Sequence record: LC788710.1
Reading direction: 5' to 3' (one strand)
DNA length: 64,000 bases
Source: Escherichia coli phage Wa28
Each line of letters starts with the position of its first letter. Within the stretch, counting starts at the first letter, position 1. The notes under the pieces were generated by a model. The model was not told where the DNA came from and ran no database searches. It worked only from the letters and a program-made list of their open reading frames with translations. Positions 30,814-60,578 of this stretch are shown here, one piece after another. Made by a program: the position numbers and the translations under genes.

Positions 30814-30824
30814 TTTATGTAATA

Positions 30825-31124: not shown

Positions 31125-31135
31125 CTCCTTAAAAT

Positions 31136-31210: not shown

Positions 31211-31216
31211 AAATAT

Positions 31217-31293: not shown

Positions 31294-31301
31294 GCAGAAA
31301 T

Positions 31302-31378
31302 TGGCGTCCTGTGCGGGGATCGAACCCGCAAACCCCACCTTGAAAGGGTGGTGACTTTACCAGTTTGTCTAACAGGAC
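31302..31378 (-). tRNA. tRNA-Glu (UUC)
   Basis: Hand-folded; all stems perfect. Confidence 0.8.
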
Positions 31379-31860: not shown

Positions 31861-31877
31861 ATCCTTTACCTTTAATT

Positions 31878-31965
31878 TGGTGGGCGTTAATGGAGTCGAA
31901 CCACTCGAGTCGCAATGACCAGGGATTTACAATCCCCTCCGCTACCACTTACGGAATAAACGCCC
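31878..31965 (-). tRNA. tRNA-Tyr (GUA), type II
   Basis: Hand-folded; long variable arm. Confidence 0.7.
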
Positions 31966-32094
31966 ATATTTAGAAGTATTCAAATACTTGTTTAAACACT
32001 TTTAAATATGTTTTCCAAATTAGATATCTATTATATCAAGTTTTGAAGGACTGAGCAAGTCAAATTTTAAAGAACTTGCTCAGTGCTACATCAG

Positions 32095-32370
32095 TTACTC
32101 GAAGCTAGGAGTGACGCTCAGTTTGAATGGAAGCTCGAACACTTCTTCATAATCATCATTGAGCGTAATTACACGACCTTCTAGCTTAGTCATGGTGATT
32201 TCGATATCAGCCCTTGCATCAGGAGCCATACCAGCTTCCACACATTTAGCTTTAACTTCCGGCAGAAGTTCTACGTCGTAGAAATAAAGCCATTCAATCT
32301 CACCTTCCCAGCCACCCCAGGATTTACAAACAGCACTTTCAACACCAGTTGCAGTAACACGTTTTGACAT
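32095..32370 (-). CDS. hypothetical protein (91 aa)
   Basis: ORF. Confidence 0.5.
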   Translation of the reverse strand: MSKRVTATGVESAVCKSWGGWEGEIEWLYFYDVELLPEVKAKCVEAGMAPDARADIEITMTKLEGRVITLNDDYEEVFELPFKLSVTPSFE

Positions 32371-32400
32371 TCGTTAACTCCTTCATCAATTTATATAACT

Positions 32401-32430
32401 ATTATAACAGAAATCTTAAGTAAAAAGCAA
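32401..32430 (-). promoter_or_regulatory. early promoter TTGCTT-18-TATAAT
   Basis: Motif read. Confidence 0.6.
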
Positions 32431-32460
32431 GTACATTTTTAAAATTTCTGCTTGGAGGAG

Positions 32461-32733
32461 TTAAACTCCTGATTCTTCAGCCAGATCAAGCCCAACCAAC
32501 GTGATTGCCATAATAGCCGCGCCATGTTCTTTCTCCCCTAGCTCTTTGGCTTGAGCGAGAATATTGAGGAATTGCTTTTGAAAATCTGCAACTTCTTCTG
32601 TCATGCCTGCTTCAGCAATAATTCCTTTAAGCATAAAGCGTTGTGCCGTAATTTCAGGATTAGCCATTTGTTTTCTCCAGTTATTTAGAATGTAAGCCAA
32701 ACTTAGGATCATAGCGATCGTAAGTCGTACCAT
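32461..32733 (-). CDS. hypothetical protein (90 aa)
   Basis: ORF. Confidence 0.5.
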   Translation of the reverse strand: MVRLTIAMILSLAYILNNWRKQMANPEITAQRFMLKGIIAEAGMTEEVADFQKQFLNILAQAKELGEKEHGAAIMAITLVGLDLAEESGV

Positions 32734-32818
32734 TAGTTGAAGCCTTAATGCTATGGAAACGACAGTACATAAATTTACGTAGTGCTTTCTTAATAGCTTT
32801 CATTTTATTTCCTTAATT

Positions 32819-32895
32819 TGGTAGGGGTGGTGGGATTCGAACCCACAAAACCTGAATTTTAAGTCCAGTACCTATGCCAATTCGATTACACCCCC
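32819..32895 (-). tRNA. tRNA-Leu (UAA), short variable loop
   Basis: Hand-folded; D-arm poorly paired. Confidence 0.55.
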
Positions 32896-32903
32896 ATGTA
32901 ATC

Positions 32904-33257
32904 TTAGCGAATCTCTAAACCCTGGAAATATCGAGGGAATGGAGAGCCAACTTCAAAATTGATGCCCCAATTAAGTTCAACGAGTTCAGATTTATTAAGA
33001 TCTAGGCCATTACCTTCAAAGATATAGCCGTAAACCGCAGGAAACATAGCTGCTAGATCTTCCATATCGGAATGAGCATTGTGTTCTTCACGGAACTGCT
33101 CAAACTCTTCAAAGAACTTTTCTAGGAAGAACTCAGGTACGATGAACGTTACCACATCAGTAGAATCATCGGTACGATACACCGTAGCTTGGAACAAGCC
33201 AACACCTAAAAGGTTTATTGCCGGAGTAGTAAAAATATCCATCTTAGCCTCGCTCAA
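32904..33257 (-). CDS. hypothetical acidic protein (117 aa)
   Basis: ORF. Confidence 0.5.
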   Translation of the reverse strand: MSEAKMDIFTTPAINLLGVGLFQATVYRTDDSTDVVTFIVPEFFLEKFFEEFEQFREEHNAHSDMEDLAAMFPAVYGYIFEGNGLDLNKSELVELNWGINFEVGSPFPRYFQGLEIR

Positions 33258-33429
33258 TGTCTAGACAAATTGCATATTCAGGGTTGATACCAGTACCTTT
33301 ACATGTAGGACATTCCCATTCTCTACAGAAAATACCCCCCGGTTCTGCATCATCCTGCCTACCACCACCATGACAGTCCTTACACCGACATTCTTCTAAT
33401 GCTTTCTTCATTTCATAGAATCTAGACAT
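33244..33429 (-). CDS. small zinc-ribbon protein (61 aa)
   Basis: CRCKDCHG...CREWECPTC. Confidence 0.45.
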   Translation of the reverse strand: MSRFYEMKKALEECRCKDCHGGGRQDDAEPGGIFCREWECPTCKGTGINPEYAICLDIERG

Positions 33430-33446
33430 ATAGTCTCCTGGTTAAT

Positions 33447-33524
33447 TGGTGGCTCCCGGAGGATTCGAACCTACCTACCTTTCGCTTATGAGGCGACGGC
33501 TCATACCAAATGAGCTTGAGAACC
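33447..33524 (-). tRNA. tRNA with CAU anticodon (Met, fMet or Ile2), third copy
   Basis: Hand-folded; anticodon loop identical to 28445-28522. Confidence 0.6.
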
Positions 33525-33529
33525 AAATT

Positions 33530-33623
33530 TGGAGGAAGATGCCAGACTCGAACTGGCACACCGTGTCTCCACAGCTACTGGCTGTTTAGCAAACAGCTCC
33601 CTTACCTTTAGGGTTAATCTTCC
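33530..33623 (-). tRNA. tRNA-Ser (GCU), type II
   Basis: Hand-folded; perfect anticodon stem, exact acceptor pairing. Confidence 0.7.
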
Positions 33624-33637
33624 GAATTTATGAATAT

Positions 33638-33666
33638 ATTATACAGAAAATTTCGGCATTAAGCAA
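33638..33666 (-). promoter_or_regulatory. early promoter TTGCTT-17-TATAAT
   Basis: Motif read. Confidence 0.65.
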
Positions 33667-33674
33667 GTGAAATT

Positions 33675-33971
33675 TTACTGAACACTGCACTGATACACTT
33701 GTTTGATACGTGTCACTGACTTCTTAGTTGGATTGATAGAAGAACCTTGCCACCAACGTGACTCTGAGCTAAGAACAGCGCCAGGAACAGCCTGCTCTTT
33801 TGGCAGAACAATATCAAAACACTGTTCACCCATATTATCTTTAATGTGTGACCAAATATCCAAAGTAAATCGTTCTAACTTATTACAAACCTGAACTTGA
33901 CAAAGTTCCTGTTGCGGAGCAGCAAATACAGAAGTAGATACTAGAGCCAATGCAAGTACAATGCGTTTCAT
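33675..33971 (-). CDS. secreted protein (signal peptide), 98 aa
   Basis: MKRIVLALALVSTSVFAAP. Confidence 0.5.
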   Translation of the reverse strand: MKRIVLALALVSTSVFAAPQQELCQVQVCNKLERFTLDIWSHIKDNMGEQCFDIVLPKEQAVPGAVLSSESRWWQGSSINPTKKSVTRIKQVYQCSVQ

Positions 33972-34001
33972 GTTTGATTCCTCTCTCGAATTTATAAATA
34001 T

Positions 34002-34030
34002 ATTATACAGAAATTTTCTATATTAAGCAA
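34002..34030 (-). promoter_or_regulatory. early promoter TTGCTT-17-TATAAT
   Basis: Motif read. Confidence 0.65.
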
Positions 34031-34077
34031 GTGAAAATTTCTGTATAATAGCCCTCGCTTAGAGGGCTATAACTACT

Positions 34078-34770
34078 TTATTTGTTAACGCGTACAAAGT
34101 ATCCTTTATAAGCTCCAAGAATAGAGTTGCCTAAGAATACTAGCCACATTGCTAGGATTGCGTAAGATGCACCTGTAGATTGAGCAGTTACAAGCCAAAT
34201 GTACACAGTACCAATGTTAATAGCAATCCAAATCAGCCATTGTTCAGCATATTGTTTGACCATAAGCCACATAGCAATCACACTACCAACCGCAGTAAAT
34301 GCATCCAACATTGGGAATGGATCAGCCGTAGTAGCAAGGAAACTACCATAACCTAACGTGGCTACTGCTAAAATCCCTAGAGTCAGCAAAGCTTGAGCTT
34401 TTGTCAGAACTTTAGTTGGAACATCCGGTAGATTACTTGGCTTATTTTTATGCCACAAGTACATTCCGTAGAACTGCATAGGAACGTAGTACAATAGGTT
34501 TAGTGCTGCGTTACCATAAAGATCAGCATTTAGAGCTGTAATACCGTAGGTCAGAACACCTACCAAACCCCAGACATAGTTGGAAACACGTCCTTTTGCA
34601 ACCAGAATAACACAAACCACATTGGTTATTGCAGTAGCCCAATCTAGAGCTGTACCATTATAGTTTGCTAAACTAATGAAGACAACCGCTATGAACAGCC
34701 ACAGATATTCCAGAGGTTTCCAGTTTTTAAAGTCATTTACGAGATAGTTAGTCATATTAAAACTCTCCAA
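34078..34770 (-). CDS. pnuC: PnuC-family nicotinamide riboside/NMN transporter
   Basis: Multi-TM; EQWLIWIAINIGTVYIW resembles E. coli PnuC ENWLLWVIINVISVVIF. Confidence 0.75.
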   Translation of the reverse strand: MESFNMTNYLVNDFKNWKPLEYLWLFIAVVFISLANYNGTALDWATAITNVVCVILVAKGRVSNYVWGLVGVLTYGITALNADLYGNAALNLLYYVPMQFYGMYLWHKNKPSNLPDVPTKVLTKAQALLTLGILAVATLGYGSFLATTADPFPMLDAFTAVGSVIAMWLMVKQYAEQWLIWIAINIGTVYIWLVTAQSTGASYAILAMWLVFLGNSILGAYKGYFVRVNK

Positions 34771-35830
34771 CGTTAAAGTGATGAATCAGCCAGTCTACTG
34801 CGTTTACTGCTTCGTCCATACGAACTTTGTAGTCCGGAGAGTCGATGTAAACAGTACGCCCTTCAGGGAACTGATTTGGAAATTCTTTCTTCATCTGCTC
34901 GAACAGTTCAGAAGTAATTGAACGATCGGAGTTAATACGTAAACCATCATCTACCCACTTGACAGTAGGCGCTAGAACAATTACTAAATCGTAATGTTCT
35001 TCTTTTGCAATTGCTGTAACCACAGGGTTCTTACTATGTTCATAAAGTCTGTGGTAGAACTCAGTAATAAAAGCATTTGTATCCACAAACATGATCTTAT
35101 TTGCAGTACGTTCTGCTTCAAACTCTAGCTCTTTGTGTCTGAACGCAATTTTACTATAGTCTTCGCTGGTAAGCAGATTTTCGTTACCAACTAGATCAAC
35201 TTCACAATACGTTCGGCCATATTCTTCTACCCACGAAGTGTTGTATAGCTTCGCAAGGTATTTTGTTAAAGTAGTCTTTCCTGAGCTTTCAGTCCCAATG
35301 ATTACAACCTTACGCACGTAATCTTTACGAGCTACGCTAGGAAGAAACTCCCAATACTTCATAAGATCATTACGAATCATTGTAGCTGAGATTGGAACAC
35401 GAGTCCGATCAGAATCTACAATATAATGACCAAACTTCGGCAGATATTTCTTATATTCTGCATCATAGTCTAGTTCGCTAGAGAAAATGGTGATCTCAGG
35501 CAAATGTCCGTAATTTTCATTAAGGATTCTAGCATATTCCGGCCAACCATTCGGATATTCAGGAATATCATCTTCAATAATGTACTCTACCGAAATGTGC
35601 TCAATATCCGCGTAAGTTTGTTCTAACCAACGAAGTCGATTCTTTAACTGTAATACTTCCTGATCACGAGTGTTCTGCTTATCCAGCCAACGATTATCAT
35701 GACTAACTACAACAATAACTCGTTCACACATAGTTGCTGCTGTGTTTATTAGGTTAATATGACCACGCGTTAATGGCGCGAACTTACCAATTACTAGACC
35801 AGTCTTAATCATATTTGATTCCTCTCTCAA
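34757..35830 (-). CDS. nadR: NadR-like bifunctional NMN adenylyltransferase / ribosylnicotinamide kinase
   Basis: N-terminal GKFAPLTRGH nucleotidyltransferase motif; central GTESSGKTT P-loop. Confidence 0.75.
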   Translation of the reverse strand: MREESNMIKTGLVIGKFAPLTRGHINLINTAATMCERVIVVVSHDNRWLDKQNTRDQEVLQLKNRLRWLEQTYADIEHISVEYIIEDDIPEYPNGWPEYARILNENYGHLPEITIFSSELDYDAEYKKYLPKFGHYIVDSDRTRVPISATMIRNDLMKYWEFLPSVARKDYVRKVVIIGTESSGKTTLTKYLAKLYNTSWVEEYGRTYCEVDLVGNENLLTSEDYSKIAFRHKELEFEAERTANKIMFVDTNAFITEFYHRLYEHSKNPVVTAIAKEEHYDLVIVLAPTVKWVDDGLRINSDRSITSELFEQMKKEFPNQFPEGRTVYIDSPDYKVRMDEAVNAVDWLIHHFNVGEF

Positions 35831-35842
35831 ATTTATAAATAT

Positions 35843-35871
35843 ATTATACAGAGAATTTAGCGTTCAAGCAA
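35843..35871 (-). promoter_or_regulatory. early promoter TTGCTT-17-TATAAT
   Basis: Motif read. Confidence 0.65.
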
Positions 35872-36024
35872 TCGAATTTTTAAACTTTTTAGTGGAAAAA
35901 TCTCAAGGCATTTAGTGGTAGCACGTTGTTGCTACAATAATAGTATATGATTCTAAAGAATTAAAGAATTAAATACTAAAGACCTTAGTTGAATAACTTA
36001 TGGGCTTTTCTTTTGCCTTAAATA

Positions 36025-36059
36025 CAGAAAAGCCCGCGCTCTCGGAGGAAACGCGGGCT
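36025..36059 (-). terminator. rho-independent terminator (GCCCGCG..CGCGGGC)
   Basis: 7-bp GC stem with A run on plus. Confidence 0.7.
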
Positions 36060-36083
36060 TGGTTCGAAGATTACGTGTAACTA

Positions 36084-37028
36084 TTACTTGTTACGCATAT
36101 CCATGATCATTTGACCATCGTAGCCAGTACCAACAACAGTCTGCGGTACACCACCTTGGTATTTTTCAGCACGAAGCATTTCAACTTCCAGCTGCTTCCA
36201 ACGAATCATTTCAGGAGTAATGGTACGTTGCAGCGCGGCGTTAGCTTCAGCTTCTTTCTTAGCTGCGTACAGTTTAGCATCTGCGTCACGTTCGTTAGCT
36301 ACTGCCATGTTTTCACGAGCAGAACGATCAGCTTCAGCTTGCTTAACTTTCTGCTGTGCTTCTTGTTCAACACGAGCCAATTCAGCTTTAGCGGCGTTAA
36401 CTTGTTCTTCACGAACTTTTGTGTTTTGTACCTGTTCCATGATTACAGGTGGCAGAGTAATATCCTGAAGGAATACTTGCTTAACCGTGTAACCATAAGG
36501 ACGCGCGTACTCTTCTACTTCTTGCTGAATAGCAGTTTGCAGTTGAGCCTGAATCTTAGCGTCGAACAGATCTTGTGCTTTTGGTACAGACTTACCAAAC
36601 TCACGAATCGTAGATAGCATCTTCTCTTCAACGTACTTGTTCAGAGCTTGATCCTGAGTACCTGCGTTAACACGGTTCATAGGAGCTTTAGCACCATCAA
36701 ACTGCAACATAACGGTAATGTCAACAGTGGACTTAAACTTATCCTGGCTAGGAACCTGGAGTTTATCCAGTTTCATAGAAATATCTTTCGTACTAAAAGT
36801 ATCAAAAGAGGCGAATGGGTTGACAATATGGAACCCCGGCAATACAGGATTAGGACTAACTTTACCCAGGAAAGTCTGAGTTTTAACCGTACCGTCCTGA
36901 ACAACTGTATAGGAATTGAGAGCCAGAATAAGAGCGCCAAGACCAACTACAGCACCAACACCCCAACGTTTAATAGTACGAATTACTTTTTGATCGGAAG
37001 TCAGTTCTTTAGTGTTTTTAGTAAACAT
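36084..37028 (-). CDS. SPFH/band-7 (prohibitin/HflC-like) membrane protein
   Basis: N-terminal TM, SPFH core, Ala/Glu/Lys-rich coiled-coil tail. Confidence 0.75.
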   Translation of the reverse strand: MFTKNTKELTSDQKVIRTIKRWGVGAVVGLGALILALNSYTVVQDGTVKTQTFLGKVSPNPVLPGFHIVNPFASFDTFSTKDISMKLDKLQVPSQDKFKSTVDITVMLQFDGAKAPMNRVNAGTQDQALNKYVEEKMLSTIREFGKSVPKAQDLFDAKIQAQLQTAIQQEVEEYARPYGYTVKQVFLQDITLPPVIMEQVQNTKVREEQVNAAKAELARVEQEAQQKVKQAEADRSARENMAVANERDADAKLYAAKKEAEANAALQRTITPEMIRWKQLEVEMLRAEKYQGGVPQTVVGTGYDGQMIMDMRNK

Positions 37029-37039
37029 ATATTTCCTTA

Positions 37040-37240
37040 TTATTTAGAAGAGTTAGCTACTACAGTTACTTTAGTTGCAGAAATAAACAGGCTAGCATCC
37101 ACAGCAAATTCAGGAGCTTTGATATCTCCGTTATGAAATATGACTATACCGGAGACTACTTCAAATGCTAGCGCTGTAACATCGGTGGTATTTACTTGTG
37201 AATGTTCACCTACTACTTTTACTATATATCGTGTTTTCAC
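37040..37240 (-). CDS. small protein, possible NfeD-like partner of SPFH
   Basis: 66-aa ORF immediately upstream of SPFH gene; beta-rich composition. Confidence 0.35.
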   Translation of the reverse strand: MKTRYIVKVVGEHSQVNTTDVTALAFEVVSGIVIFHNGDIKAPEFAVDASLFISATKVTVVANSSK

Positions 37241-37266
37241 TTTATTTTCCTAGCAGTTAATAAAAT

Positions 37267-37341
37267 TGGCCGAGGTGACAGGATTCGAACCTGCATAAAG
37301 GAATTTAGAAGACTCCTGCCTATCCCTTAGACTACACCCCG
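37267..37341 (-). tRNA. tRNA-Arg (UCU)
   Basis: Hand-folded. Confidence 0.65.
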
Positions 37342-50930: not shown

Positions 50931-51692
50931 TTACACCTTCCCCATATCCTTAAAGATATCGTAGAATGCTTTAGACTCTGGTGAGCGAACGTTGTCGATC
51001 AGTTCGATCATAGAGAAAGGAGAGTTTTCGTACTTCTCATAGACTTCCATAAGAAGTGCTAGACCTGAATCACCCTTGATGTCTTTCTGAGCTATATCTC
51101 CACAGATAATTAGACGACAATCTTGTCCGACACGAGTCAAGAGACAGATCATTGCTTCAACGGAGATATTCTGAGCTTCATCGACAATTACATAGGAGTT
51201 GTTGAAAGTTCGGCCACGGGCATGTTCGATAGCCAGGAATTTAATTTTCTGACGTTCGACATATCCTTTGTAGGCGTGATCACCGATTGCCCATTTCATG
51301 CCATCGGCTATTGGTTCCAACCAAGGCTCTAGCTTTTCTGCCAGATCACCTGGGAGCATACCAAGAGATTTACCTAGAGGTTCGTTTGGACGCACGAGGA
51401 TCACTTGCTCAATATCTGAGTGAATGTCTACGAGTTCCTGAGCTGCAAGAACGGATGGAATAAAGGTTTTACCAGTACCTGGCTCACCAATACCCACAGT
51501 CACTGTGTTGTTCTTGATCATATTGATATATGATTTTTGCTCACGGTTTTTACCAACTAGGGATTTAGCAACTGGATTGGCGTAATCACCAGAGAAATCT
51601 GCTTGAATTACGTTACTCTCGTACTTGTTGCCACGCTTTCTTGAACCATTGCGGTTCTCTCTTTTTTGACGTGCTTTTCCCATAAATAACAC
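50931..51692 (-). CDS. phoH: PhoH-like ATPase
   Basis: Walker A GEPGTGKT, Walker B VIVDEAQN. Confidence 0.85.
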   Translation of the reverse strand: MLFMGKARQKRENRNGSRKRGNKYESNVIQADFSGDYANPVAKSLVGKNREQKSYINMIKNNTVTVGIGEPGTGKTFIPSVLAAQELVDIHSDIEQVILVRPNEPLGKSLGMLPGDLAEKLEPWLEPIADGMKWAIGDHAYKGYVERQKIKFLAIEHARGRTFNNSYVIVDEAQNISVEAMICLLTRVGQDCRLIICGDIAQKDIKGDSGLALLMEVYEKYENSPFSMIELIDNVRSPESKAFYDIFKDMGKV

Positions 51693-51756
51693 TCCTATAG
51701 TGTACTTCGCTAACAGAGGATCAACAAAAAGATCTTGTTTATCAACTTACAAATAT

Positions 51757-51785
51757 ATTATACCAATATATGCGGGAGAAAGCAA
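51757..51785 (-). promoter_or_regulatory. early promoter TTGCTT-17-TATAAT for phoH train
   Basis: Motif read. Confidence 0.65.
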
Positions 51786-51987
51786 CTACAATTTTAAATA
51801 AGCCTATGATATTGCATTTAAATAAAAAATTTGCTTGCTTTTATTGGGAGATGTATGGTACTAGATAATCATTTTATATCGCGTACACGGGTGCGTGATT
51901 ATACTATTTTTAGTAGAGGTTGGCAAATAAAATTTTTTGACTCAGATCAATTTACAGAATGTTATAGTAAAATATTGTTGACATCCG

Positions 51988-52016
51988 CCTTCGAATGAGT
52001 TATAATAGTAGTCTTA
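51988..52016 (+). promoter_or_regulatory. consensus sigma70 promoter TTGACA-17-TATAAT for nrdD
   Basis: Motif read. Confidence 0.75.
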
Positions 52017-52035
52017 GTTAGAGAAGGAGGGTATA

Positions 52036-53910
52036 ATGAATCGCAATGAAGAACTAAAGTATAAAGGAATGCAGTCCTTGATTCGAAACTGCAAAGAAAT
52101 TATCGAAGGTTCAGCAGATGAAGAGCTGCTGTTTAATAATGCCAATAAGCCCTCAGAACGTTTCCCTACACAAAGGGATATGCTTGCAGGGGAATTGAGT
52201 AAATATCTGATTCTGGAAGAAATGCCGATCCAGATTCGAAATGCTCACATGATTGGTGATATTCACTTCCATGATGCTGATTACGCTGCGTTAGGTATGA
52301 CTAACTGTTGCCTGGTTGCTTTGGAAGATATGTTGAAGAATGGTATGAAGGTTGGTAATGCTGAAATCAGTACGCCAAACTCTATCACTACTGCGGCTGC
52401 TATTACAGCTCAGATTATCACTCAGGTTAGCTCACACCAATATGGTGGTACTTCTGTAGACCGATTAGATGAAGTATTGGCTCCTTATGTTCGTAAGTCT
52501 TATGATAAGAATCATGCGTTTGCAAAACGTTGGACTAAGGATGAAGCCAAAGCATCTGTAATGGCTACGGAAATGACTGAGAAAGAAGTTTACGATGCCT
52601 GCCAGGGTCTAGAGTACGAAATCAATACGATGTTCAACTCTAATGGTCAGAGTCCATTTATTACCTTTGGTTTCGGTTTAGGAACTTCTTGGGAAGCACG
52701 TCTTGTACAGAAAGCAATCTTAGAAGTGCGTATGGATGGTTTGGGTATCAATAAACGTACTGCTATCTTCCCTAAACTGGTATTTGTTCTACGTGACGGC
52801 GTAAACATGAAACCTGGCGATGTTAACTATGATATCAAGAAGTTAGCTATGAAGTGTACTGCTGAACGTATGTATCCGGACTATATCAGCTATGATAAGG
52901 TTGTAGAAGTTACGGGGGACTACAAAGTCTCTATGGGCTGTCGTTCATTCCTGGCTGCTGCGGAAGATGGTGAAACTTCTGGTCGTAACAACTTAGGCGT
53001 TGTTTCCGTAAACCTTCCTCGAATCGCTATCGAAGCGGAAGGAAATATTGATCTATTCTTCGATCTGCTTGAGCTGCGTGTGGATACCGCGTTAAAAGCA
53101 TTGGAGTGGAGGGTTGATCGCTTAAAATACATTCAAGCTAAAGCTGCGCCCATCCTCTATATGTCAGGAGCCTTTGGATTACGTCTGGGGCCAGATGAAT
53201 ATGTATTTGATCATTTCTACAAGCGTGCTTCTGTATCCCTAGGATATATTGGCTGCCACGAAATGTTGCAGCTCATGTTTGGTAAAGATGTAGATACAAT
53301 GTCTGAGTCTTGTATCAAGTTCGTTCAACGTGTGCTACAATACATGCGTGATCGTGCTGATCAGAAGAAGGAAGAGACTCAATTAGGGTATAGTCTGTAT
53401 GCTACACCATCTGAATCTCTATGTGATCGCTTCTGTCGCCTAGACCGTGAGTATTTCCCAGAGCATGAAGATATTCTGGCTAAAGGATATTACACTAATT
53501 CCCATCACCTTGATGTAGAACGTAAGGTTGCTCCAAATGTGAAGTTTGATTATGAGTCTAACTTTACTCCTATTGCTTCTGGTGGGTGCATTTCCTATGT
53601 GGAATTACCTGATATGAAACGATTCCCTGATGCATTGGAATGGGTTATTAACTATGCTGCAAGTAAAGTTCATTACTTCGGTATTAATACTCCAGTAGAC
53701 TCTTGTGGGGAATGCGGGTTCTTGGGTGAAACTATAGCTTCTGAGGATGGTTTCAAATGTCCAATTTGTGGCAATCATGATCCTGAGACTCTTGAGGTAA
53801 CTCGTCGAGTTTGTGGATATCTTGGAAATCCAGGTGCTCGTCCGTTTAACCCAGGTAAACAACATGAGGTTATGGGTCGAGTGAAACATCAAGACATTCG
53901 CGCTAAATAA
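52036..53910 (+). CDS. nrdD: anaerobic ribonucleoside-triphosphate reductase (class III)
   Basis: 624 aa; C-terminal CGECGF...CPICG zinc site and RVCGYLG glycyl-radical motif. Confidence 0.9.
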   Translation: MNRNEELKYKGMQSLIRNCKEIIEGSADEELLFNNANKPSERFPTQRDMLAGELSKYLILEEMPIQIRNAHMIGDIHFHDADYAALGMTNCCLVALEDMLKNGMKVGNAEISTPNSITTAAAITAQIITQVSSHQYGGTSVDRLDEVLAPYVRKSYDKNHAFAKRWTKDEAKASVMATEMTEKEVYDACQGLEYEINTMFNSNGQSPFITFGFGLGTSWEARLVQKAILEVRMDGLGINKRTAIFPKLVFVLRDGVNMKPGDVNYDIKKLAMKCTAERMYPDYISYDKVVEVTGDYKVSMGCRSFLAAAEDGETSGRNNLGVVSVNLPRIAIEAEGNIDLFFDLLELRVDTALKALEWRVDRLKYIQAKAAPILYMSGAFGLRLGPDEYVFDHFYKRASVSLGYIGCHEMLQLMFGKDVDTMSESCIKFVQRVLQYMRDRADQKKEETQLGYSLYATPSESLCDRFCRLDREYFPEHEDILAKGYYTNSHHLDVERKVAPNVKFDYESNFTPIASGGCISYVELPDMKRFPDALEWVINYAASKVHYFGINTPVDSCGECGFLGETIASEDGFKCPICGNHDPETLEVTRRVCGYLGNPGARPFNPGKQHEVMGRVKHQDIRAK

Positions 53911-55677: not shown

Positions 55678-55843
55678 GGGTATCTGGAAAGGTCTAGTAT
55701 GGTTTGTTAACCTAATCGGTATGATTACCATTTATTCTCTGTTCCTATCTGTTATGTGGGGTAAAGGTGAGCTGAAGGTTCCAATTCCTTTTACTGATGA
55801 AGTTAAAGTCTGGACGTGGGATGCTACTGGTGGAAATAAGTAA
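55655..55843 (+). CDS. small membrane protein (62 aa)
   Basis: Internal Met with AGGAGGG SD. Confidence 0.4.
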   Translation, partial: NMVKKIFKGIWKGLVWFVNLIGMITIYSLFLSVMWGKGELKVPIPFTDEVKVWTWDATGGNK

Positions 55844-56336
55844 TACTCCTATAATTTTTCTGGATATTGATGGAGTGCTCAATTCGAGCATCTCTCACCA
55901 TCATGCTCCAGATAGTGAAAAGCTATTCTTTGGTAGTGATTGGGTTTATAAGCCCTTACTCCAGGCTTTTCAGAACTTCCTTAAACCTTCTCCAATAATG
56001 ATTGTTGGGGTATCTTCGTGGTTTTCTGTACGAAACGAGATGGAGAACGTCCAGATTATGACCGGACTCGGTTTGATCGATCGTTTTCTTGGTACTACAG
56101 ATTTTACTGGAGGTGGTTTATATCGAGGTAATTCTGTCTTACGTTTCGTAGAAAAACATAAGCTCAAGCATTGGTGCGTCCTAGATGATGCTGGTGCTAT
56201 GATGTACCAATTTCCTACTGTTATTGTAAATGGCAGGAATGGAATAAACCTTCAAGATTTAAATGCTATAAGCTATATGCTGGAATTTAGTCCAGATCTT
56301 GAAATGTGTAAGGCTCTTCAGAAACTTAAGGTATAA
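55797..56336 (+). CDS. HAD-superfamily hydrolase (start uncertain)
   Basis: IIFLDIDGVLN motif I. Confidence 0.55.
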   Translation: MKLKSGRGMLLVEISNTPIIFLDIDGVLNSSISHHHAPDSEKLFFGSDWVYKPLLQAFQNFLKPSPIMIVGVSSWFSVRNEMENVQIMTGLGLIDRFLGTTDFTGGGLYRGNSVLRFVEKHKLKHWCVLDDAGAMMYQFPTVIVNGRNGINLQDLNAISYMLEFSPDLEMCKALQKLKV

Positions 56337-56338
56337 GC

Positions 56339-56767
56339 ATGTTCAATAATATTTTCATGAAAGAGGTAAATCCTATGCTCCTCAACTTCTGGCGTTCTCT
56401 CCCTAATGGTATGTACAATGAAACCATCAATCTGCTTAAGATTTGGTGTGAGAATAACGATATCTTCCTGTCTTTTAAAGGCCCACTAGAGGAAGCTCCG
56501 TGTATTGGAGTTAGCGTGGATTTAGGGGAGGGAGTAGAAGAAATTGTAGACTGGAAAGAACTCGATGAAATGGGTCTGGTTTTTGCCTTGAACCATAAGC
56601 TGTTTATGCCTGCAAATCACCGTCTTATTGTAAACTATCGCACTGGTGAAGCTCCTGCTTTCCAGGTAAATGAACGTGAGGGCTGGTCATATTCGCCCGA
56701 AGAAGTAAATGAGGGGATTCAGAAACTTCGTCGTTTCGGGTATATGATCCCAGGTTTAACTGCTTAA
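56339..56767 (+). CDS. hypothetical protein, paralog A (142 aa)
   Basis: Shares WxELxxMGLxxALN...GExP...PGL pattern with next ORF. Confidence 0.55.
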   Translation: MFNNIFMKEVNPMLLNFWRSLPNGMYNETINLLKIWCENNDIFLSFKGPLEEAPCIGVSVDLGEGVEEIVDWKELDEMGLVFALNHKLFMPANHRLIVNYRTGEAPAFQVNEREGWSYSPEEVNEGIQKLRRFGYMIPGLTA

Positions 56768-56776
56768 GGAGGCAGA

Positions 56777-57172
56777 ATGGAACAAGTATTTTGGCGTCAG
56801 ATAGATCCTAGTTTGGTAGAGCGTGCTGAAGGGCTCCTTGCACGTTGGTGGGGGGTTGACAAGGTTAGTGTAACATTTCCGTTTACTTCTGTAACAGACC
56901 CTAGTGTAGGTGTCTTTGTGGACGAAGATGAAGATGATGGTTGGGAAGCTGACTGGAATGAATTGTCCAGTATGGGCTTGATTGTTGCCCTCAACTTCTC
57001 TATATTCCACCCACGTGGTTTAGCTATTACACGTGATCCCGAAACCGGTGAATCCCCTTATCTTTTGCAAGTAGAAGATGATATTTGGGAGTACACCGAA
57101 GATATTCTCGAAGAAGCTAAAGGTCAATTAAATCGCATTGGGATCTATGTTCCAGGCCTAAATGATGATTGA
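56777..57172 (+). CDS. hypothetical protein, paralog B (131 aa)
   Basis: Tandem paralog of 56339..56767. Confidence 0.55.
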   Translation: MEQVFWRQIDPSLVERAEGLLARWWGVDKVSVTFPFTSVTDPSVGVFVDEDEDDGWEADWNELSSMGLIVALNFSIFHPRGLAITRDPETGESPYLLQVEDDIWEYTEDILEEAKGQLNRIGIYVPGLNDD

Positions 57173-57196
57173 TTTTCATTAGTCCAATCCTGATTA

Positions 57197-57220
57197 CCGA
57201 GTCATTTTGGCTCGGTTTTC
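57197..57220 (+). terminator. rho-independent terminator (CCGAG..CTCGG + TTTT)
   Basis: Hairpin plus T run. Confidence 0.6.
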
Positions 57221-57263
57221 TCTGTGCTCAAAGACACTGATAGCACCTTCGGAAAAATTTTAC

Positions 57264-57292
57264 TTGCAGGATGGTCAAAATCTTGATATAAT
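57264..57292 (+). promoter_or_regulatory. promoter TTGCAG-17-TATAAT
   Basis: Motif read. Confidence 0.55.
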
Positions 57293-57788
57293 ATTTATAT
57301 TGAATTGAGAGACATTAGTAAAAATTGATTTTGCTAATTTTTCTTGTTTACAATCCGCAATACGGAACAGTTAGGCTGCCCCATTAAGGGTTGTTTTAAC
57401 TATTACTAGTGTTTATACTGCATTAGTTAATTATCAATTAAGTGATCTGCGTACCCTGAATTCGGAAAGGTAAATCCAAACCGTGCATATTTAGCTCGTT
57501 ATATAGGCAGAGCTTTATATGGGGGTGCGAACGAAAAGAGCAGCGAATGGTGACACGTCCAGTAGCCACCTACCAATAGGATAGTGAGGGCAATCAGAAT
57601 CGGCTTAGCGGCCAATGACCTAGGTTCTGATCTGGATAAGAGTTAAGAGAGCGCAGCACTGAGGTATGATAACTTATTCATACTGCTTGATGATGATTAA
57701 TGTTTGTGTAAATGGTAGTAATAGTTGTTCTATTCTTTTGAATAGTCCTAAAGAAAGATATTCGAATAACCAACATAGGAGTATTGTT

Positions 57789-60578
57789 GTGTTCTCAATC
57801 CTACAAGGTCACGCAGGATTTTCCAGAGATAAAGCTACTGGCATCTGGAAAGAGATCAAAGTGGAAGATTACACCTTTGCAAAGCGATTCTCTAAAGAGC
57901 ATCCAGAAGGTAAACCAGCTTCCATGCCCTTCAAATTTGATGTACTTGAAGAACTTGACCCGCAAAACCTTGCTGAAATGTTACCTATCATGCGTCGTCT
58001 TACCAAAGACCCGCATATTGTAGCTATTCGTGGTAAATGTTTAGCTCCAAAAGATAATGTGCGTCGTACCAGAGGAAACTTTAACGTATCCAATCCTAGT
58101 CATATTATTGCTATGGACGTGGACGGTATTGTAGATACTGGTGGCTATGACAAGTTTAATCTTGTTGGCATGGCACGTCATATTATTAAGATGTTGAATA
58201 GTATTAGTGAGGATATGTTTCCTCTTGATGCAGGGTTTATTGCTCATGCATCGTCTTCGGCTGGCCTAAAACCAGGTATCCGAATGCACTTAATGCTAGA
58301 ATCTAATGTCAAGGTAACGCAGGGACAATTAAAATTCTTATTTACATCCATCAATGACAGTAGTAAGCAAAAGTATGGCTTTGATATTGCTGACTTAGCT
58401 TATTATTCTTCTGTTCAGCTTCACTATTTCGCAGATCCCTTATTTGATGATGGTATAGTCGATCCGTTTAAAGCGGAGAATAAACCACGTCTTGTGTATG
58501 TTAAGGGTTCGAAAGTGAATCTACCCAATAACCTAGTTGACTTTGAAACAACTAGAGGTGAGTTTAAAGAAGAATTCTACTCCTTACTTGACCAAATTAA
58601 AGGCAAGAAGGCTGCATCTGATAAAGTGGAAGAAACCATCAGCGAACTAGAAGAAGCTGAGGATGGGGTGTACCTGCGTATTATTCCAAAACTTTACCAC
58701 AGAGCGTTAGAAGATGGTGTTGACTTTACATGGTTAGAACGTGAGATTAAACCAGCTTTATCTGAATATATTGCAACTAAAGATAATAGTCGTAATATTC
58801 AAGATTACTTTAATAACGGTCGTAAGCAGGCTCTCAAAGCCTTTGTAAATAACTCCAAACGTGAGATTCCACCCAACTTAAAAGGTGTACCATTAAAACG
58901 TCTGGACACAGATTCTCCACCAGAAGTTCCATACCTGAAAATTAATATTGTACCACCAAAAGGACATTTAACATTTGTTAAGGCAAGTCTTGGTACGGGT
59001 AAAACTACAGCAGTAACTAAGTGGCTAGATGCAGGTGTTCTTCCAGGAAACTTTATTGCAATCACAAATACTAGGGCACTTGTATCTTCTAACGCGAAGA
59101 AATTCGGTGCTGGTCAGTATGATAAGTCAGTTGATATGCTGAACTTCAAACGTGGTGCCATTGATCGTATGTCTTCAACTATTCACTCTATCCATAAGTT
59201 CAAGAGCTTTGTGGGTCAGATTGATACGATCTTTATTGATGAATGTGACGCAGTAATGAATGATCTGTTATTCGCTCCGGTTGTTAAAAATCGTCGTGAA
59301 TGTATTCAGGTTCTTCGTGATATCCTTATTACTGCTAAAACTGTTATCTTATCCGATGGTGATATTAGTGCAGAAACGATTGAAGCCTATGGTTCTTTGA
59401 TTGATTTTGATAAACCAGTCGCATTTTATAATCACCACCGTAAAATGCTGGCGAAAGCTCATGCTTATGAATTCCCTGATGAATCCAGTATTTGGGTTGC
59501 ACTTCAAACATCTTTAGAGATGGGGGGGAAATCAATCCTAGTATCTGACTGTGGCCCGGATGAACTGAATGAGAAGGGAATGGCATTACGTCGTAATACT
59601 GGTGCGTTAGTTAAAGAAATTCACTCAAACTCTACGTCTGATGTAGATATCCGACGTATTCTGGATTATACAACTAATGAGCTAATTGATCAACAGATTG
59701 ATTGTTTATTATGTAGTCCATCTGTAACGAGTGGTGTTGACTTTAACTATTTTGATAACGTATTCGTAATCACTAGAACCTCAAACCAAGCGCCAAACAT
59801 GCGTTTTCAAGCAATCAGGCGCGACCGTGGTGCTCAGAACATTTATTATTTTATTGATAAATCTACGAGTGGATTTTCTGCGGGTTCCGAGCAATATAAT
59901 ATTGACGAAGGTTGGATTGAGTTAGCCCAACAACTGTACGCACGTCGTCGTGAGCTGGAATCTAGAAACTATACCAGTACTTTGCGGTATTATCTTCTCG
60001 ATCAAGGTGCAACTATTGATATTTTCAGTGAAAGCTGGGGAACTATCGAAGGTGCAGGCAAAGAGTATACAGAAGAGCGAATCAAAGCTATTTTGCACTC
60101 AACTCCTGAATATTGCGCACCACGTCATGCAGACGCATATGAAGCTAAATTGCTTCTGGTTCGCTATTATCATCTGGATTCTATCAAAGATGTAACAATG
60201 GAACATGTTGAACAGTATATCAAGGATAAACCGAATGATCGAGCTGCATTTTTCCACAAGATGCACGACATGTTCTGGGAAGATATTAAAAAGTGTTCAA
60301 ACGTAACAATCAAACCGTTTATCGAAGCTCTTAAGAATAAGAAGAAGGATTTCTTCCTTAAGACAGGTCAGAGCGCTAACCCAAAATATGCTCGTATGTA
60401 TCTTGGCATGATGGGTATCGGTAAAGATCTGGATACGGAAAAGATTGTGGACTGGTACAGAACTTACTGTAAGATCGAATGTATGCCGATTCCAGTTAAG
60501 TTTATGACAGACGAAGAACGTCAGATGCACGAGGAAGCTCTTGCTGAATTGGGAGCTAGAAATGACAGTGAAGAATAA
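57789..60578 (+). CDS. large Walker A/B NTPase, putative replication origin-binding / SF2 helicase-like protein
   Basis: GTGKTT Walker A, IFIDECD Walker B; GTG start with TAGGAG SD preferred over track ATG at 57666 (low-complexity N-term). Confidence 0.55.
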   Translation: MFSILQGHAGFSRDKATGIWKEIKVEDYTFAKRFSKEHPEGKPASMPFKFDVLEELDPQNLAEMLPIMRRLTKDPHIVAIRGKCLAPKDNVRRTRGNFNVSNPSHIIAMDVDGIVDTGGYDKFNLVGMARHIIKMLNSISEDMFPLDAGFIAHASSSAGLKPGIRMHLMLESNVKVTQGQLKFLFTSINDSSKQKYGFDIADLAYYSSVQLHYFADPLFDDGIVDPFKAENKPRLVYVKGSKVNLPNNLVDFETTRGEFKEEFYSLLDQIKGKKAASDKVEETISELEEAEDGVYLRIIPKLYHRALEDGVDFTWLEREIKPALSEYIATKDNSRNIQDYFNNGRKQALKAFVNNSKREIPPNLKGVPLKRLDTDSPPEVPYLKINIVPPKGHLTFVKASLGTGKTTAVTKWLDAGVLPGNFIAITNTRALVSSNAKKFGAGQYDKSVDMLNFKRGAIDRMSSTIHSIHKFKSFVGQIDTIFIDECDAVMNDLLFAPVVKNRRECIQVLRDILITAKTVILSDGDISAETIEAYGSLIDFDKPVAFYNHHRKMLAKAHAYEFPDESSIWVALQTSLEMGGKSILVSDCGPDELNEKGMALRRNTGALVKEIHSNSTSDVDIRRILDYTTNELIDQQIDCLLCSPSVTSGVDFNYFDNVFVITRTSNQAPNMRFQAIRRDRGAQNIYYFIDKSTSGFSAGSEQYNIDEGWIELAQQLYARRRELESRNYTSTLRYYLLDQGATIDIFSESWGTIEGAGKEYTEERIKAILHSTPEYCAPRHADAYEAKLLLVRYYHLDSIKDVTMEHVEQYIKDKPNDRAAFFHKMHDMFWEDIKKCSNVTIKPFIEALKNKKKDFFLKTGQSANPKYARMYLGMMGIGKDLDTEKIVDWYRTYCKIECMPIPVKFMTDEERQMHEEALAELGARNDSEE

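What the first reader, a model, noticed from the sequence alone, without database searches (positions are those of the whole stretch)
57180..57788. About 600-bp leader upstream of the origin-binding/helicase-like gene: candidate replication origin or cis-regulatory RNA
After a terminator (57197-57220) and promoter (57264-57292) there are about 500 nt before the best-supported start (GTG 57789) of the 930-aa Walker A/B protein. The track's ATG at 57666 would add a low-complexity Cys/Asn-rich N-terminus that looks non-coding. A long structured leader next to an initiator-like protein is a typical origin arrangement.
Basis: inference. Interest (0 to 1): 0.55.

Follow-up and report, generated by a model that had tools for sequence, protein, structure and literature searches.

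The report
Large structured RNA before T5 helicase gene
The roughly 490-base untranslated stretch in front of the replication helicase gene (D2) of this T5-like phage holds a conserved, intricately folded RNA of about 330 bases that matches no catalogued RNA family and whose function is still unknown.

Summary
The window is an Epseptimavirus, a T5-like phage. A terminator (57196-57220) and a strong early promoter (57264-57292) are followed by about 490 nt with stop codons in all six frames, ahead of the conserved GTG 57789 start of D2 (T5.108). The ATG at 57666 is not a real start: relatives have stops or ACG there, and active T5 D2 was expressed from the GTG.

The leader is not a simple spacer. 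Positions 57397-57727 form a multi-helix RNA domain closed by a 38-bp basal stem. Compensatory changes support it in seven lineages. On a plain MAFFT alignment 82% of cells pair, against 36-48% in slid controls, and 42 of 83 pairs change on both sides. In the core, 40 of 58 pairs do.

G·U pairs and the fold energies indicate an RNA read from the + strand. Rfam gives no match. One hairpin loop (UUAGCG, 57605-57610) is invariant.

There are no iterons, no antisense promoter, no attenuator and no anti-Shine-Dalgarno pairing. An origin role is therefore unsupported by sequence. It is not excluded, because the locus lies at about 48.5% of the T5 genome, where origins have been mapped. My best guess is a protein-recognised, cis-acting processing or regulatory module for D2 mRNA.

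The parts
57196..57220 (+). Intrinsic terminator that ends the upstream DUF7415 operon.
   Evidence: A 9-bp stem (5 G-C pairs) followed by a T-run. It is conserved, with compensatory changes in the stem, in relatives. T5 annotates the equivalent site.
57264..57292 (+). T5-type early sigma-70 promoter: TTGCAG, 17 nt, TGnTATAAT. The inferred start is about 57299.
   Evidence: Sequence. The CTTGC...TTGnTATAAT core is kept in all lineages, including those at 55-65% D2 identity. T5 annotates a promoter here. The transcription start is inferred, not mapped.
57299..57788 (+). The whole 5' leader of the D2 mRNA, about 490 nt and non-coding.
   Evidence: The distance from the -10 box to the start codon is 474-500 nt in most lineages, and 594-619 nt where there are insertions. 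Stops close all six frames. No terminator-like site lies inside it.
57307..57345 (+). 5'-proximal hairpin H1: GAGAGA/UUUCUU stacked on AUUAGUAAAA/UUUUGCUAAU.
   Evidence: Present in the folds. Pairing is kept in My1, L065 and Sugarland with different sequences (alignment; helices 1-2 are 82-87% paired).
57360..57384 (+). Highly conserved leader box AUACGGAACAGUUAGGCUGCCCCAU. It is conserved in sequence and shows no covariation.
   Evidence: About 20 invariant columns across the 12 sequences of alignment A2. It is the most conserved stretch of the leader.
57397..57727 (+). Structured RNA domain of about 330 nt and at least 15 helices.
   Evidence: Covariance model R1 finds exactly one copy in the window, at E = 2e-101.
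57397..57437 (+). 5' strand of the basal stem (P1 57397-57408, P1b 57410-57418, P2 57420-57429, P2b 57431-57437).
   Evidence: It pairs with 57687-57727 for 38 bp, with three single mismatches or bulges. In helices 3-4, 18 of 37 pairs change on both sides.
57687..57727 (+). 3' strand of the basal stem.
   Evidence: As for the 5' strand. Inverted repeat I1 is part of this stem.
57441..57660 (+). Core closed by P3 (AGUG..CUGCGU 57441-57452 pairs with GCGCAG..CACU 57651-57660). It holds the P4 arm (57453-57526), P7 (57527-57541), the joiner GCGAAUGG (57543-57550; GAGAAGUG in other lineages) and the P8/P9 arm (57551-57645).
   Evidence: P3 is 100% paired, with 5 of 9 pairs changed on both sides. 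Model R3, built without the window sequence, hits 57445-57658 at E = 1e-13. The P4-P7 assignment in this A-type sequence is the least certain part.
57593..57631 (+). P11/P12 hairpin: AUCAGAAUC pairs with GGUUCUGAU and encloses GGC-UUAGCG-GCC. The UUAGCG loop at 57605-57610 is invariant.
   Evidence: In helices 6-7, 7 of the 9 P11 pairs change on both sides while the loop never varies. The same hairpin is the only local match found in Providencia (and, at E = 0.017). In one search it also gives weak local matches in Proteus and Aeromonas relatives, which do not stand out from the background of that unfiltered search. CTTAGCGG occurs only once in the 64-kb window.
57663..57684 (+). P13 hairpin, located between P3 and P2b. 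The false ATG 57666 lies inside it.
   Evidence: Stem pairs covary across lineages (helix 6, helix 8). The loop differs between the A-type and the other lineages.
57730..57745 (+). Hairpin H3 (CUAUUC-UUUU-GAAUAG), immediately 3' of the domain. It is not a terminator.
   Evidence: A hairpin sits at the same place with a different sequence in L065 (CUUUCC/GGAAAG) and Sugarland. No T-run follows it.
57777..57781 (+). Shine-Dalgarno sequence AGGAG, 7 nt before the GTG.
   Evidence: Conserved in all close relatives.
57789..60578 (+). D2 / T5.108 'replication origin binding protein', a UL9-like SF2 helicase of 929 aa with a GTG start.
   Evidence: Pfam Herpes_ori_bp matches residues 391-533 only. 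PDB sequence matches are weak and limited to chains named 'Replication origin-binding protein'. Biochemistry is in PMC3632103.
57666..57788 (+). In-frame ATG extension used by some annotations. Rejected as coding.
   Evidence: Relatives have stops 48-90 nt upstream of the GTG, or ACG in place of the ATG. The stretch overlaps P13 and the 3' strand of the basal stem.

Best explanation
SHOWN. The region is the roughly 490-nt 5' leader of the early mRNA for the D2 replicative helicase. Its centre (57397-57727) is an independently folding RNA domain of about 330 nt. A 38-bp basal stem closes a multi-branched core. Conserved single-stranded elements are displayed on that core, above all an invariant UUAGCG hairpin loop. 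Selection acts on the + strand RNA, not on the DNA.

INFERRED. The domain works in cis on the transcript that carries D2. A trans-acting factor, most plausibly an early phage replication protein such as D2 itself, recognises the conserved loops. The long basal stem, which has the length of an RNase III substrate, serves as a processing or stabilising element. Together these would set how much translatable D2 mRNA is present. D2 is made from a weak GTG start 60 nt downstream of the domain.

By sequence criteria the region is not a DNA replication origin.
For: Structure:
- On a plain MAFFT alignment, with helices taken from the window sequence, 82.4% of cells pair against 36-48% in slid controls. 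42 of 83 pairs change on both sides, and 0 of 500 shuffles reach the observed values.
- On model-fitted alignments the figures are 91.4% paired with 24 of 43 pairs changed, and 95.2% paired with 40 of 58 pairs changed.
- With only P3 enforced, constrained folds give the same overall architecture across the seven lineages, most clearly in L024, L065 and My1. Unconstrained folds of the core do the same for those three.
- Model R3, built without the window sequence, finds the window at E = 1e-13 and Sugarland at E = 0.005.

RNA and strand:
- Each sequence has 5-8 G·U pairs against 0-1 A·C pairs.
- The + strand folds at -144.6 kcal/mol (z = -4.15). The - strand folds at -111.8 kcal/mol (z = -2.7).

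Cis linkage:
- The domain always lies directly upstream of D2.
- Its 3' end sits a near-constant 50-62 nt before the start codon in five lineages.
- No terminator lies between the domain and D2.

Recognition surface: the UUAGCG loop is invariant while its stem covaries.

Basal stem: 38 bp.

Precedent, from general knowledge: phage replication genes are often controlled through RNA operators (T4 genes 32 and 43), and phage early mRNAs are often processed at long stems (T7 RNase III sites).
Against: - No expression platform was found. There is no attenuator. Pairing between the 5' flank and the Shine-Dalgarno region is no better than for shuffled sequence.
- The domain ends 50 nt before the Shine-Dalgarno sequence, unlike known translational operators.
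- About 330 nt and 15 helices is far more than a repressor operator needs.
- In Proteus phage Stubb a consensus promoter (TTGACA-18-TATAAT) sits between the structured region and D2.
- In Aeromonas phage TS3 the non-coding region ends in a strong terminator before D2. If those RNAs are homologous, the RNA need not be on the D2 message. That homology is shown only for a UUAGCGG-loop motif (seen by eye, with weak local matches). A core-model search of the TS3 region found nothing.
- No transcript, processing or binding data exist.
Confidence: 0.45

Rival explanations
1. Origin transcript. The promoter at 57264-57292 drives a structured RNA that stays hybridised as an R-loop or is processed into a primer, as with ColE1 RNA II or the T4 and T7 promoter-origins. 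This would mark a primary T5 origin where D2 is loaded.
For: - The element is next to the gene for the UL9-like helicase thought to be the T5 initiator (PMC3632103).
- The locus lies at 48.4-48.9% of the T5 genome, and origins are reported near the centre of T5 DNA (10.1101/866236).
- In Vibrio and Aeromonas relatives the long non-coding region is the divergent gap between nrdD (- strand) and D2 (+ strand).
- In TS3 the RNA has its own terminator.
- ColE1 RNA II is a precedent for a structured primer RNA of about 550 nt (general knowledge).
Against: - There are no iterons or repeated boxes, and no antisense promoter.
- No DNA unwinding element is distinct from the promoter.
- The GC-skew minimum and strand switch are at 51.7-52.0 kb, not here.
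- The elaborate conserved loops are not explained by priming alone.
- T5 has multiple origins by electron microscopy (cited).
Confidence: 0.2
2. Stand-alone non-coding RNA. The domain is cut out of the leader at its basal stem, or transcribed on its own in some relatives. It then acts in trans, for example as a partner or scaffold of a replication protein, or as a decoy against a host factor or defence system. Co-transcription with D2 would be incidental.
For: - Its size, helix count and conserved loops resemble large stand-alone structured RNAs more than leaders.
- The 38-bp closing stem resembles the processing stems that release rRNAs (general knowledge).
- Separate promoter or terminator arrangements occur in Proteus and Aeromonas relatives.
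- The interior of the domain is only 43-45% identical between A-type and B-type phages, while the 5' flank is 98-100% identical. That pattern suggests cassette exchange or fast, arms-race-like evolution.
Against: - Synteny with D2 is strict and the spacing to its start is constant in five lineages.
- There is no terminator after the domain in the enterobacterial phages.
- No complementary target for the conserved loop exists in the window.
- No expression data exist.
Confidence: 0.2
3. Metabolite- or tRNA-sensing riboswitch-like leader that tunes D2 synthesis to nucleotide supply.
For: It is a 5' leader with a P1-closed multi-helix aptamer-like domain and conserved junction nucleotides. The neighbourhood is rich in nucleotide-metabolism genes such as nrdA, nrdB, nrdD, thy and frd.
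Against: There is no match to any Rfam riboswitch or T-box. No terminator or anti-Shine-Dalgarno platform was found. The domain is larger than typical riboswitch aptamers (general knowledge). Its interior sequence is very variable, at 43-45% identity between close phages, unlike ligand pockets.
Confidence: 0.07
4. Purely DNA-level element such as a cruciform or protein-binding site, or coding sequence (an N-terminal extension of D2 or small ORFs as annotated in some records).
For: Some GenBank records annotate D2 from the upstream ATG, or place 33-43-aa ORFs in the leader. Long inverted repeats exist.
Against: - G·U pairs greatly outnumber A·C pairs and the fold energy is strand-asymmetric.
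- Stops close all frames in seven lineages.
- The ATG extension is not conserved.
- The annotated small ORFs differ between records.
Confidence: 0.03

Closest known systems
ColE1 RNA II (pre-primer RNA of ColE1-type plasmids)
   Same: A structured transcript of about 500 nt from a strong constitutive promoter in a replication control region. In ColE1 the function depends on the RNA fold.
   Different: No antisense RNA I-type promoter is present. There is no evidence of an R-loop or an RNase H site. The transcript continues into a translated gene. The host here is a lytic phage with its own replication proteins. There is no sequence or Rfam match.
Promoter-dependent phage origins (T4 ori(uvsY) and ori(34); T7 primary origin)
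   Same: A host-RNA-polymerase or phage promoter whose transcript is used at an origin close to replication genes.
   Different: From general knowledge, those origins are a promoter plus a short unwinding element, with no large conserved RNA fold. Here the conserved feature is the RNA fold, and no separate unwinding element is seen.
Autogenous translational operators of phage replication genes (T4 gene 32 pseudoknot, gene 43 hairpin operator)
   Same: An RNA structure in the 5' leader of a replication protein gene, and a conserved hairpin loop as a candidate protein site.
   Different: Those operators are tens of nucleotides long and overlap or abut the ribosome-binding site (general knowledge). 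This domain is about 330 nt and ends 50 nt before the Shine-Dalgarno sequence.
Large structured non-coding RNAs often carried by phages (GOLLD, ROOL)
   Same: Size class, many helices and phage genomes.
   Different: Those families gave no match to this leader at E up to 10 in Rfam. From general knowledge they are usually found near tRNA genes, not as the leader of a helicase gene. This RNA is confined, as far as shown, to Markadamsvirinae-type T5-like phages.
RNase III processing stems (rRNA precursor stems, T7 early mRNA R sites)
   Same: A long, nearly perfect duplex (38 bp) formed by sequences that flank a folded RNA.
   Different: Cleavage has not been tested. From general knowledge, T7 sites are single hairpins and do not enclose a 250-nt domain.
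Riboswitch and T-box leaders
   Same: A 5' leader with a P1-closed multi-stem domain and conserved junction nucleotides.
   Different: There is no Rfam match, no expression platform and no known ligand. The interior sequence varies strongly.

Membership tests
Any Rfam 15 family | Covariance-model score at or above the family's gathering threshold. | tested here: not met
   In the gathering scan of the window only tRNAs pass. In the E-value scan of 57100-57900 the only match is Hrs1 at 19.8 bits against a threshold of 56.4, on the - strand at the terminator. Seven relatives and the insert-bearing L036 give nothing relevant.
Iteron or box-type replication origin | Several direct or inverted copies of an initiator-binding motif. 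| tested here: not met
   The repeat finder with seed 6 gives only two-copy families of 9-17 nt at 73-100% identity, scattered through the region. CTTAGCGG occurs once.
Iteron or box-type replication origin | An AT-rich DNA unwinding element next to the binding sites. | tested here: inconclusive
   GC falls to 24% at 57250-57349, but that stretch is the AT-rich T5-type promoter and the start of the transcript.
Iteron or box-type replication origin | Replication initiates there, and the initiator binds the DNA. | not testable with these tools
   Only positional data are available: the locus is at 48.4-48.9% of T5, and origins are reported 'near the centre'.
ColE1-type primer RNA | A structured transcript of several hundred nt reading into the origin. 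| tested here: inconclusive
   A structured transcript is present. The position of any origin is unknown.
ColE1-type primer RNA | An antisense regulator RNA transcribed from the opposite strand. | tested here: not met
   No promoter-like site lies on the - strand between 57127 and 58477.
Riboswitch | A conserved aptamer fold supported by covariation. | tested here: met
Riboswitch | An expression platform: a terminator or a Shine-Dalgarno-sequestering helix that alternates with P1. | tested here: not met
   No terminator-like site lies in the leader. Duplex energy between the 5' flank and the Shine-Dalgarno region is not better than for shuffles in six lineages.
Riboswitch | Specific ligand binding. 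| not testable with these tools
   This needs in-line probing or SHAPE.
Autogenous translational operator (T4 gene 32 / gene 43 type) | The operator overlaps or abuts the ribosome-binding site. | tested here: not met
   The domain ends at 57727, hairpin H3 ends at 57745 and the Shine-Dalgarno sequence is at 57777.
RNase III-processed stem | A duplex of about 20 bp or more. | tested here: met
   P1, P1b, P2 and P2b together make 38 bp with three single interruptions. The stem length is similar in other lineages.
RNase III-processed stem | Cleavage in vivo or in vitro. | not testable with these tools
   This needs RNA end mapping in wild-type and rnc hosts.
D2 / T5.108 protein family (downstream gene) | Full-length similarity to T5 D2, with Walker A at K405 counted from the GTG start. 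| tested here: met
   phrog_3712 covers residues 1-929. Identity to T5 over the first 300-500 residues is 93%. G402-T406 are invariant. The K405E mutant is described in PMC3632103.

The most novel reading that the evidence does not exclude
The folded RNA is the cis-acting heart of the long-sought primary replication origin of T5. In this reading, a host-polymerase transcript whose structure directs R-loop or primer formation is recognised, through the invariant UUAGCG hairpin, by the UL9-like D2 helicase. That would be a ColE1-RNA II-like, RNA-guided initiation mechanism in a virulent phage, with an RNA-binding 'origin-binding protein'.
Probability: 0.15. Interest if true: 0.85.

Novelty: new member of a known kind. 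Interest (0 to 1): 0.62.

Why it matters
T5 is a classic model phage, yet its replication origin and the control of its replication genes remain undefined. This study finds a large RNA with strong covariation support directly upstream of the essential D2 helicase gene. The leader and its gap are conserved in hundreds of sequenced T5-like phages of Escherichia and Salmonella, and the fold itself was traced in seven lineages, including phages of Klebsiella and Pectobacterium. It matches no family in Rfam.

The RNA is a concrete, testable handle on two questions: how D2 expression is set, and where and how T5 replication starts. T5 and purified D2 are both experimentally tractable.

It also has practical value for annotation. 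D2 should start at the GTG, and the small ORFs annotated inside the leader should be removed.

The interior of the RNA differs sharply between otherwise near-identical phages while the fold is kept. That pattern suggests modular exchange or rapid co-evolution with a partner.

Tried and rejected
1. Known RNA families. Rfam gathering and E-value scans of the window, seven relatives and the insert-bearing locus found nothing.
2. Iterons and boxes. None were found, and the conserved loop motif is unique in the window.
3. The ATG 57666 start and small ORFs. Rejected on conservation and stop codons.
4. Long-range anti-Shine-Dalgarno pairing. RNAalifold proposed a helix between UUCUUGU (57344) and the Shine-Dalgarno sequence. 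Duplex energies are no better than for shuffles in six lineages, so this was rejected.
5. Internal promoters. The site at 57643-57670 is not conserved in T5 or B-type phages. The site at 57325-57354 is split by the 97-nt insert carried by 51 phages.
6. Extending the family with covariance models. In Providencia only the UUAGCG hairpin matches, weakly. In Proteus and Aeromonas only very weak local matches to that hairpin appeared in one unfiltered search. In Vibrio there was nothing. Homology of those long leaders is therefore unproven.
7. Full-length covariance model.
8. Metagenome scan for D2 relatives. It added only one new lineage, L085.
9. The N-terminal 390 aa of D2. No Pfam or PDB sequence match was found. 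The large protein search gave only two hits. The single-sequence AlphaFold model has pLDDT 35.6 and is unusable. My idea that this region is an archaeo-eukaryotic-type primase domain therefore stays untested.
10. Literature. No paper in the held library describes this RNA. The catalogue of more than 10,000 phage structured RNAs (PMC10690425) does not mention it in the text, and its tables are not held.
Full report
**Where we are.** The window is a T5-like phage. The 801 bases around the finding are 100% identical to Salmonella phages S116 and SE18 and 99.9% identical to EPS7 (genus Epseptimavirus, family Demerecviridae). 522 phage records hold a match to this query. The gene downstream is T5 D2 / T5.108, annotated 'replication origin binding protein'. 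D2 is a UL9-like SF2 helicase that has been characterised biochemically (PMC3632103). Its only Pfam match is Herpes_ori_bp, over residues 391-533. The first 390 residues match no family.

**Checking the observation.** The terminator is real: a 9-bp stem at 57196-57216 followed by a T-run. The promoter is also real: TTGCAG at 57264-57269, a 17-nt spacer, then TGnTATAAT ending at 57292. The T5 reference record annotates a terminator and a promoter at the equivalent positions, and starts T5.108 at the GTG that corresponds to 57789.
- In 31 related loci the GTG (ATG in one) and the AGGAG before it are kept. The in-frame extension to ATG 57666 is closed by stop codons 48-90 nt upstream, or the ATG reads ACG.
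- Wong et al. cloned D2 from this GTG and obtained an active helicase. Their K405 Walker A lysine matches numbering from the GTG.
- The leader has 4-19 stops in each of the six frames in seven lineages.
- A gap of 530-890 nt upstream of D2 is kept in every relative, down to 55% D2 identity. The distance from the -10 box to the start codon is 474-500 nt in most.

**What fills the leader.** A MAFFT alignment of the intergenic regions shows compensatory changes at several long-range pairs. RNAalifold on 12 leaders recovers these pairs. The + strand folds at -144.6 kcal/mol (z = -4.15). The complement folds at -111.8 kcal/mol (z = -2.7).

I built three covariance models.
- R1 covers the outer stems and one inner hairpin. 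It finds exactly one copy in the window, at 57395-57730 (E = 2e-101), and one upstream of D2 in each enterobacterial, Pectobacterium (My1) and Klebsiella (Sugarland-type) relative and in a metagenomic lineage, L085.
- R2 models the 213-nt core from B-type phages only, with a structure taken from their fold plus comparison. It still hits L085 (1e-32), L065 (2e-20), My1 (2e-11) and T5 (0.005) over its full length.
- R3 was rebuilt from those hits. It finds the window, which was not in its seed, at E = 1e-13, and Sugarland at E = 0.005.

**Covariation.** Three alignments were scored.

| Alignment | Cells paired | Slid controls | Pairs changed on both sides |
|---|---|---|---|
| R1-fitted | 91.4% | 34-49% | 24 of 43 |
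| Core (R2-fitted) | 95.2% | 35-41% | 40 of 58 |
| Plain MAFFT, helices from the window sequence | 82.4% | 36-48% | 42 of 83 |

The plain MAFFT alignment was never fitted to a structure, so it carries no alignment bias. On it, 0 of 500 shuffles reach any of the five measures. With only P3 enforced, folds of L024, L065 and My1 give the same layout on their own, and the other lineages are broadly similar. Paired positions hold 5-8 G·U pairs per sequence against 0-1 A·C. That asymmetry, together with the energy asymmetry, means selection acts on a + strand RNA and not on DNA hairpins.

**Anatomy in window coordinates.**
- The inferred start is near 57299.
- A 5' hairpin, H1, lies at 57307-57345.
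- A sequence-conserved box without covariation, AUACGGAACAGUUAGGCUGCCCCAU, lies at 57360-57384.
- The domain spans 57397-57727 and is closed by a 38-bp basal stem. P1, P1b, P2 and P2b (57397-57437) pair with 57687-57727.
- Inside, P3 (57441-57452 with 57651-57660) closes a core with two arms. One arm is P4 (57453-57526). The other is P8/P9 (57551-57645), which carries P11/P12 with the loop UUAGCG at 57605-57610.
- The arms are separated by the small hairpin P7 and a conserved joiner, GCGAAUGG here and GAGAAGUG in other lineages.
- Hairpin P13 (57663-57684) branches off between P3 and P2b and contains the false ATG.
- After the domain come hairpin H3 (57730-57745), an A-rich spacer, AGGAG (57777-57781) and the GTG.
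- The P4-P7 assignment in this A-type sequence is my least certain part, because model R3 aligns it poorly there.

**Range and variation.** The interior of the domain is only 43-45% identical between A-type phages (window, T5) and B-type phages (for example L024). The 5' leader is 98-100% identical and the 3' part 82-85%. The fold is thus kept across a cassette-like replacement or a very fast-evolving stretch.

A 97-nt insert, flanked by a repeated TTTTTCTT, sits after 57345 in 51 phage records and always at this site.

More distant relatives also have long non-coding regions before D2.
- Proteus phage Stubb has 695 nt with z = -4.56.
- Providencia has about 615 nt with z = -1.6.
- Aeromonas phage TS3 has about 1.4 kb.
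- Vibrio phages have up to 1.1 kb.

The models detect at most a UUAGCG(G)-loop hairpin in these: clearly only in Providencia (E = 0.017), and as very weak local matches in Proteus and Aeromonas in one unfiltered search. Nothing was found in Vibrio. Homology of those leaders is therefore open. If they are related, two details matter. Stubb has a consensus promoter between the structured region and D2. TS3 has a strong terminator and a second promoter-like site there, and shows the UUAGCGG loop on two or three hairpins.

**Tests of the origin idea.** The evidence against:
- There are no iterons or repeated boxes.
- The conserved loop motif is unique in 64 kb.
- No antisense promoter is present.
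- The only AT-rich stretch is the promoter.
- The cumulative GC-skew minimum and the switch of gene orientation lie at the phoH(-)/nrdD(+) gap, 51692-52036, 5 kb upstream.

In favour are only context and position. The neighbour is the putative initiator helicase, and the locus is at 48.4-48.9% of the T5 genome. [quoted passage not shown] I rate an origin-transcript role at about 0.2.

**Tests of the cis-regulatory idea.** No attenuator is present. The helix that RNAalifold proposed between a pyrimidine tract and the Shine-Dalgarno sequence does not beat shuffled controls in six lineages. The domain stops 50 nt before the Shine-Dalgarno sequence. None of the standard expression platforms is therefore present.

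What remains is this:
- strict synteny with D2 and a near-constant 50-62 nt between the domain and the start codon;
- a weak GTG start;
- an invariant hairpin loop on a covarying stem, which is the signature of a site read by a trans-acting factor;
- a 38-bp closing duplex of the size RNase III cuts.

From these I infer a protein-recognised processing or regulatory module acting on the D2 message, with confidence about 0.45. I rate the existence of the structured RNA itself at about 0.9. A released, trans-acting RNA (0.2), an origin transcript (0.2) and a ligand sensor (0.07) are the rivals.

**Comparison with what is known.** Rfam 15 has no match for the window region or for relatives. Searches of the held literature found no description. 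A catalogue of more than 10,000 candidate phage RNAs may contain it, but its tables are not available here.

In what it may work like, the nearest precedents are ColE1 RNA II, phage promoter-origins, T4 translational operators, RNase III processing stems and large phage-borne RNAs such as GOLLD and ROOL. It fails at least one defining feature of each family that could be tested, so I file it under none of them. It is a new RNA family of a known general kind: a large structured leader or non-coding RNA.

**Verdict.** Its 'origin' reading is unproven. Interest is 0.62. This is an uncatalogued large RNA, well supported by covariation, in a model phage, next to an essential replication gene, and clear experiments could settle what it does.

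Noticed in passing
window 57407-57715, compared with L024 2116-2430: The interior of the RNA domain is only 43-45% identical between A-type phages (window, T5) and B-type phages. The 5' leader is 98-100% identical and the fold is kept. This looks like cassette exchange or very fast evolution of the RNA. L031 combines an A-type domain with a B-type 3' spacer.
   Followed up: partly
after window 57345; L019 1949-2045, L036 1946-2042: An optional 97-nt insert, flanked by a duplicated TTTTTCTT, sits in the leader of 51 phage records and always at this one site. It has no Rfam match and is absent from the window. It may be an extra RNA module or a small mobile insertion.
   Followed up: partly
L075 (Aeromonas phage TS3) 857-2309: About 1.4 kb of non-coding sequence lies between a promoter-like site and D2. 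It ends in a strong terminator (2185-2226), followed by a second promoter-like repeat. CUUAGCGG is displayed on two or three hairpins (1198, 1442, 2018). This may be a much larger stand-alone relative of the RNA.
   Followed up: partly
L068 (Proteus phage Stubb) 1703-2500: A 695-nt strongly structured region (z = -4.56) has its own promoter. A second, consensus promoter (TTGACA-18-TATAAT, about 2430-2464) lies directly before D2. A GCCUUAG motif recurs three or four times.
   Followed up: partly
window 57789-58958 (D2 residues 1-390): The N-terminal 390 residues match no Pfam or PDB family. From memory, IIAMDVDG (about residues 106-113) and HASSSAG (about 153-159) look like the DxD and sxH motifs of archaeo-eukaryotic primases, and some records call the protein 'DNA primase C'. 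This was not tested: the single-sequence AlphaFold model was unusable, with pLDDT 35.6.
   Followed up: partly
window 51692-52036: A divergent gap between phoH (- strand) and nrdD (+ strand) holds facing promoters in T5 and coincides with the cumulative GC-skew minimum of the window. It is an alternative candidate for an origin region.
   Followed up: no
window 55797-57172: Three genes lie just upstream. One protein has a HAD domain of 'Swiss Army Knife' RNA-repair proteins (55797-56336). Two are paralogous DUF7415 proteins (56339-56767 and 56777-57172). In some relatives a different 168-aa gene replaces the last one.
   Followed up: no
window 57525-57532: GTGCGAAC is the reverse complement of GTTCGCAC, which I recall as the core of the herpes simplex UL9 recognition box. 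It lies in P7 of A-type phages only and is absent from the B-type, so it is probably chance.
   Followed up: no
window 23882-37341, - strand: A cluster of 29 tRNA genes, as expected for a T5-like phage.
   Followed up: no
public records MH631454.2, PP810245.1, OR122687.1, MT074465.1: Annotations of this region disagree. D2 is started at the upstream ATG in some records. ORFs of 33-43 aa are called on either strand inside the leader, and one record marks a 'repeat_region'. These are likely mis-annotations of the RNA.
   Followed up: partly
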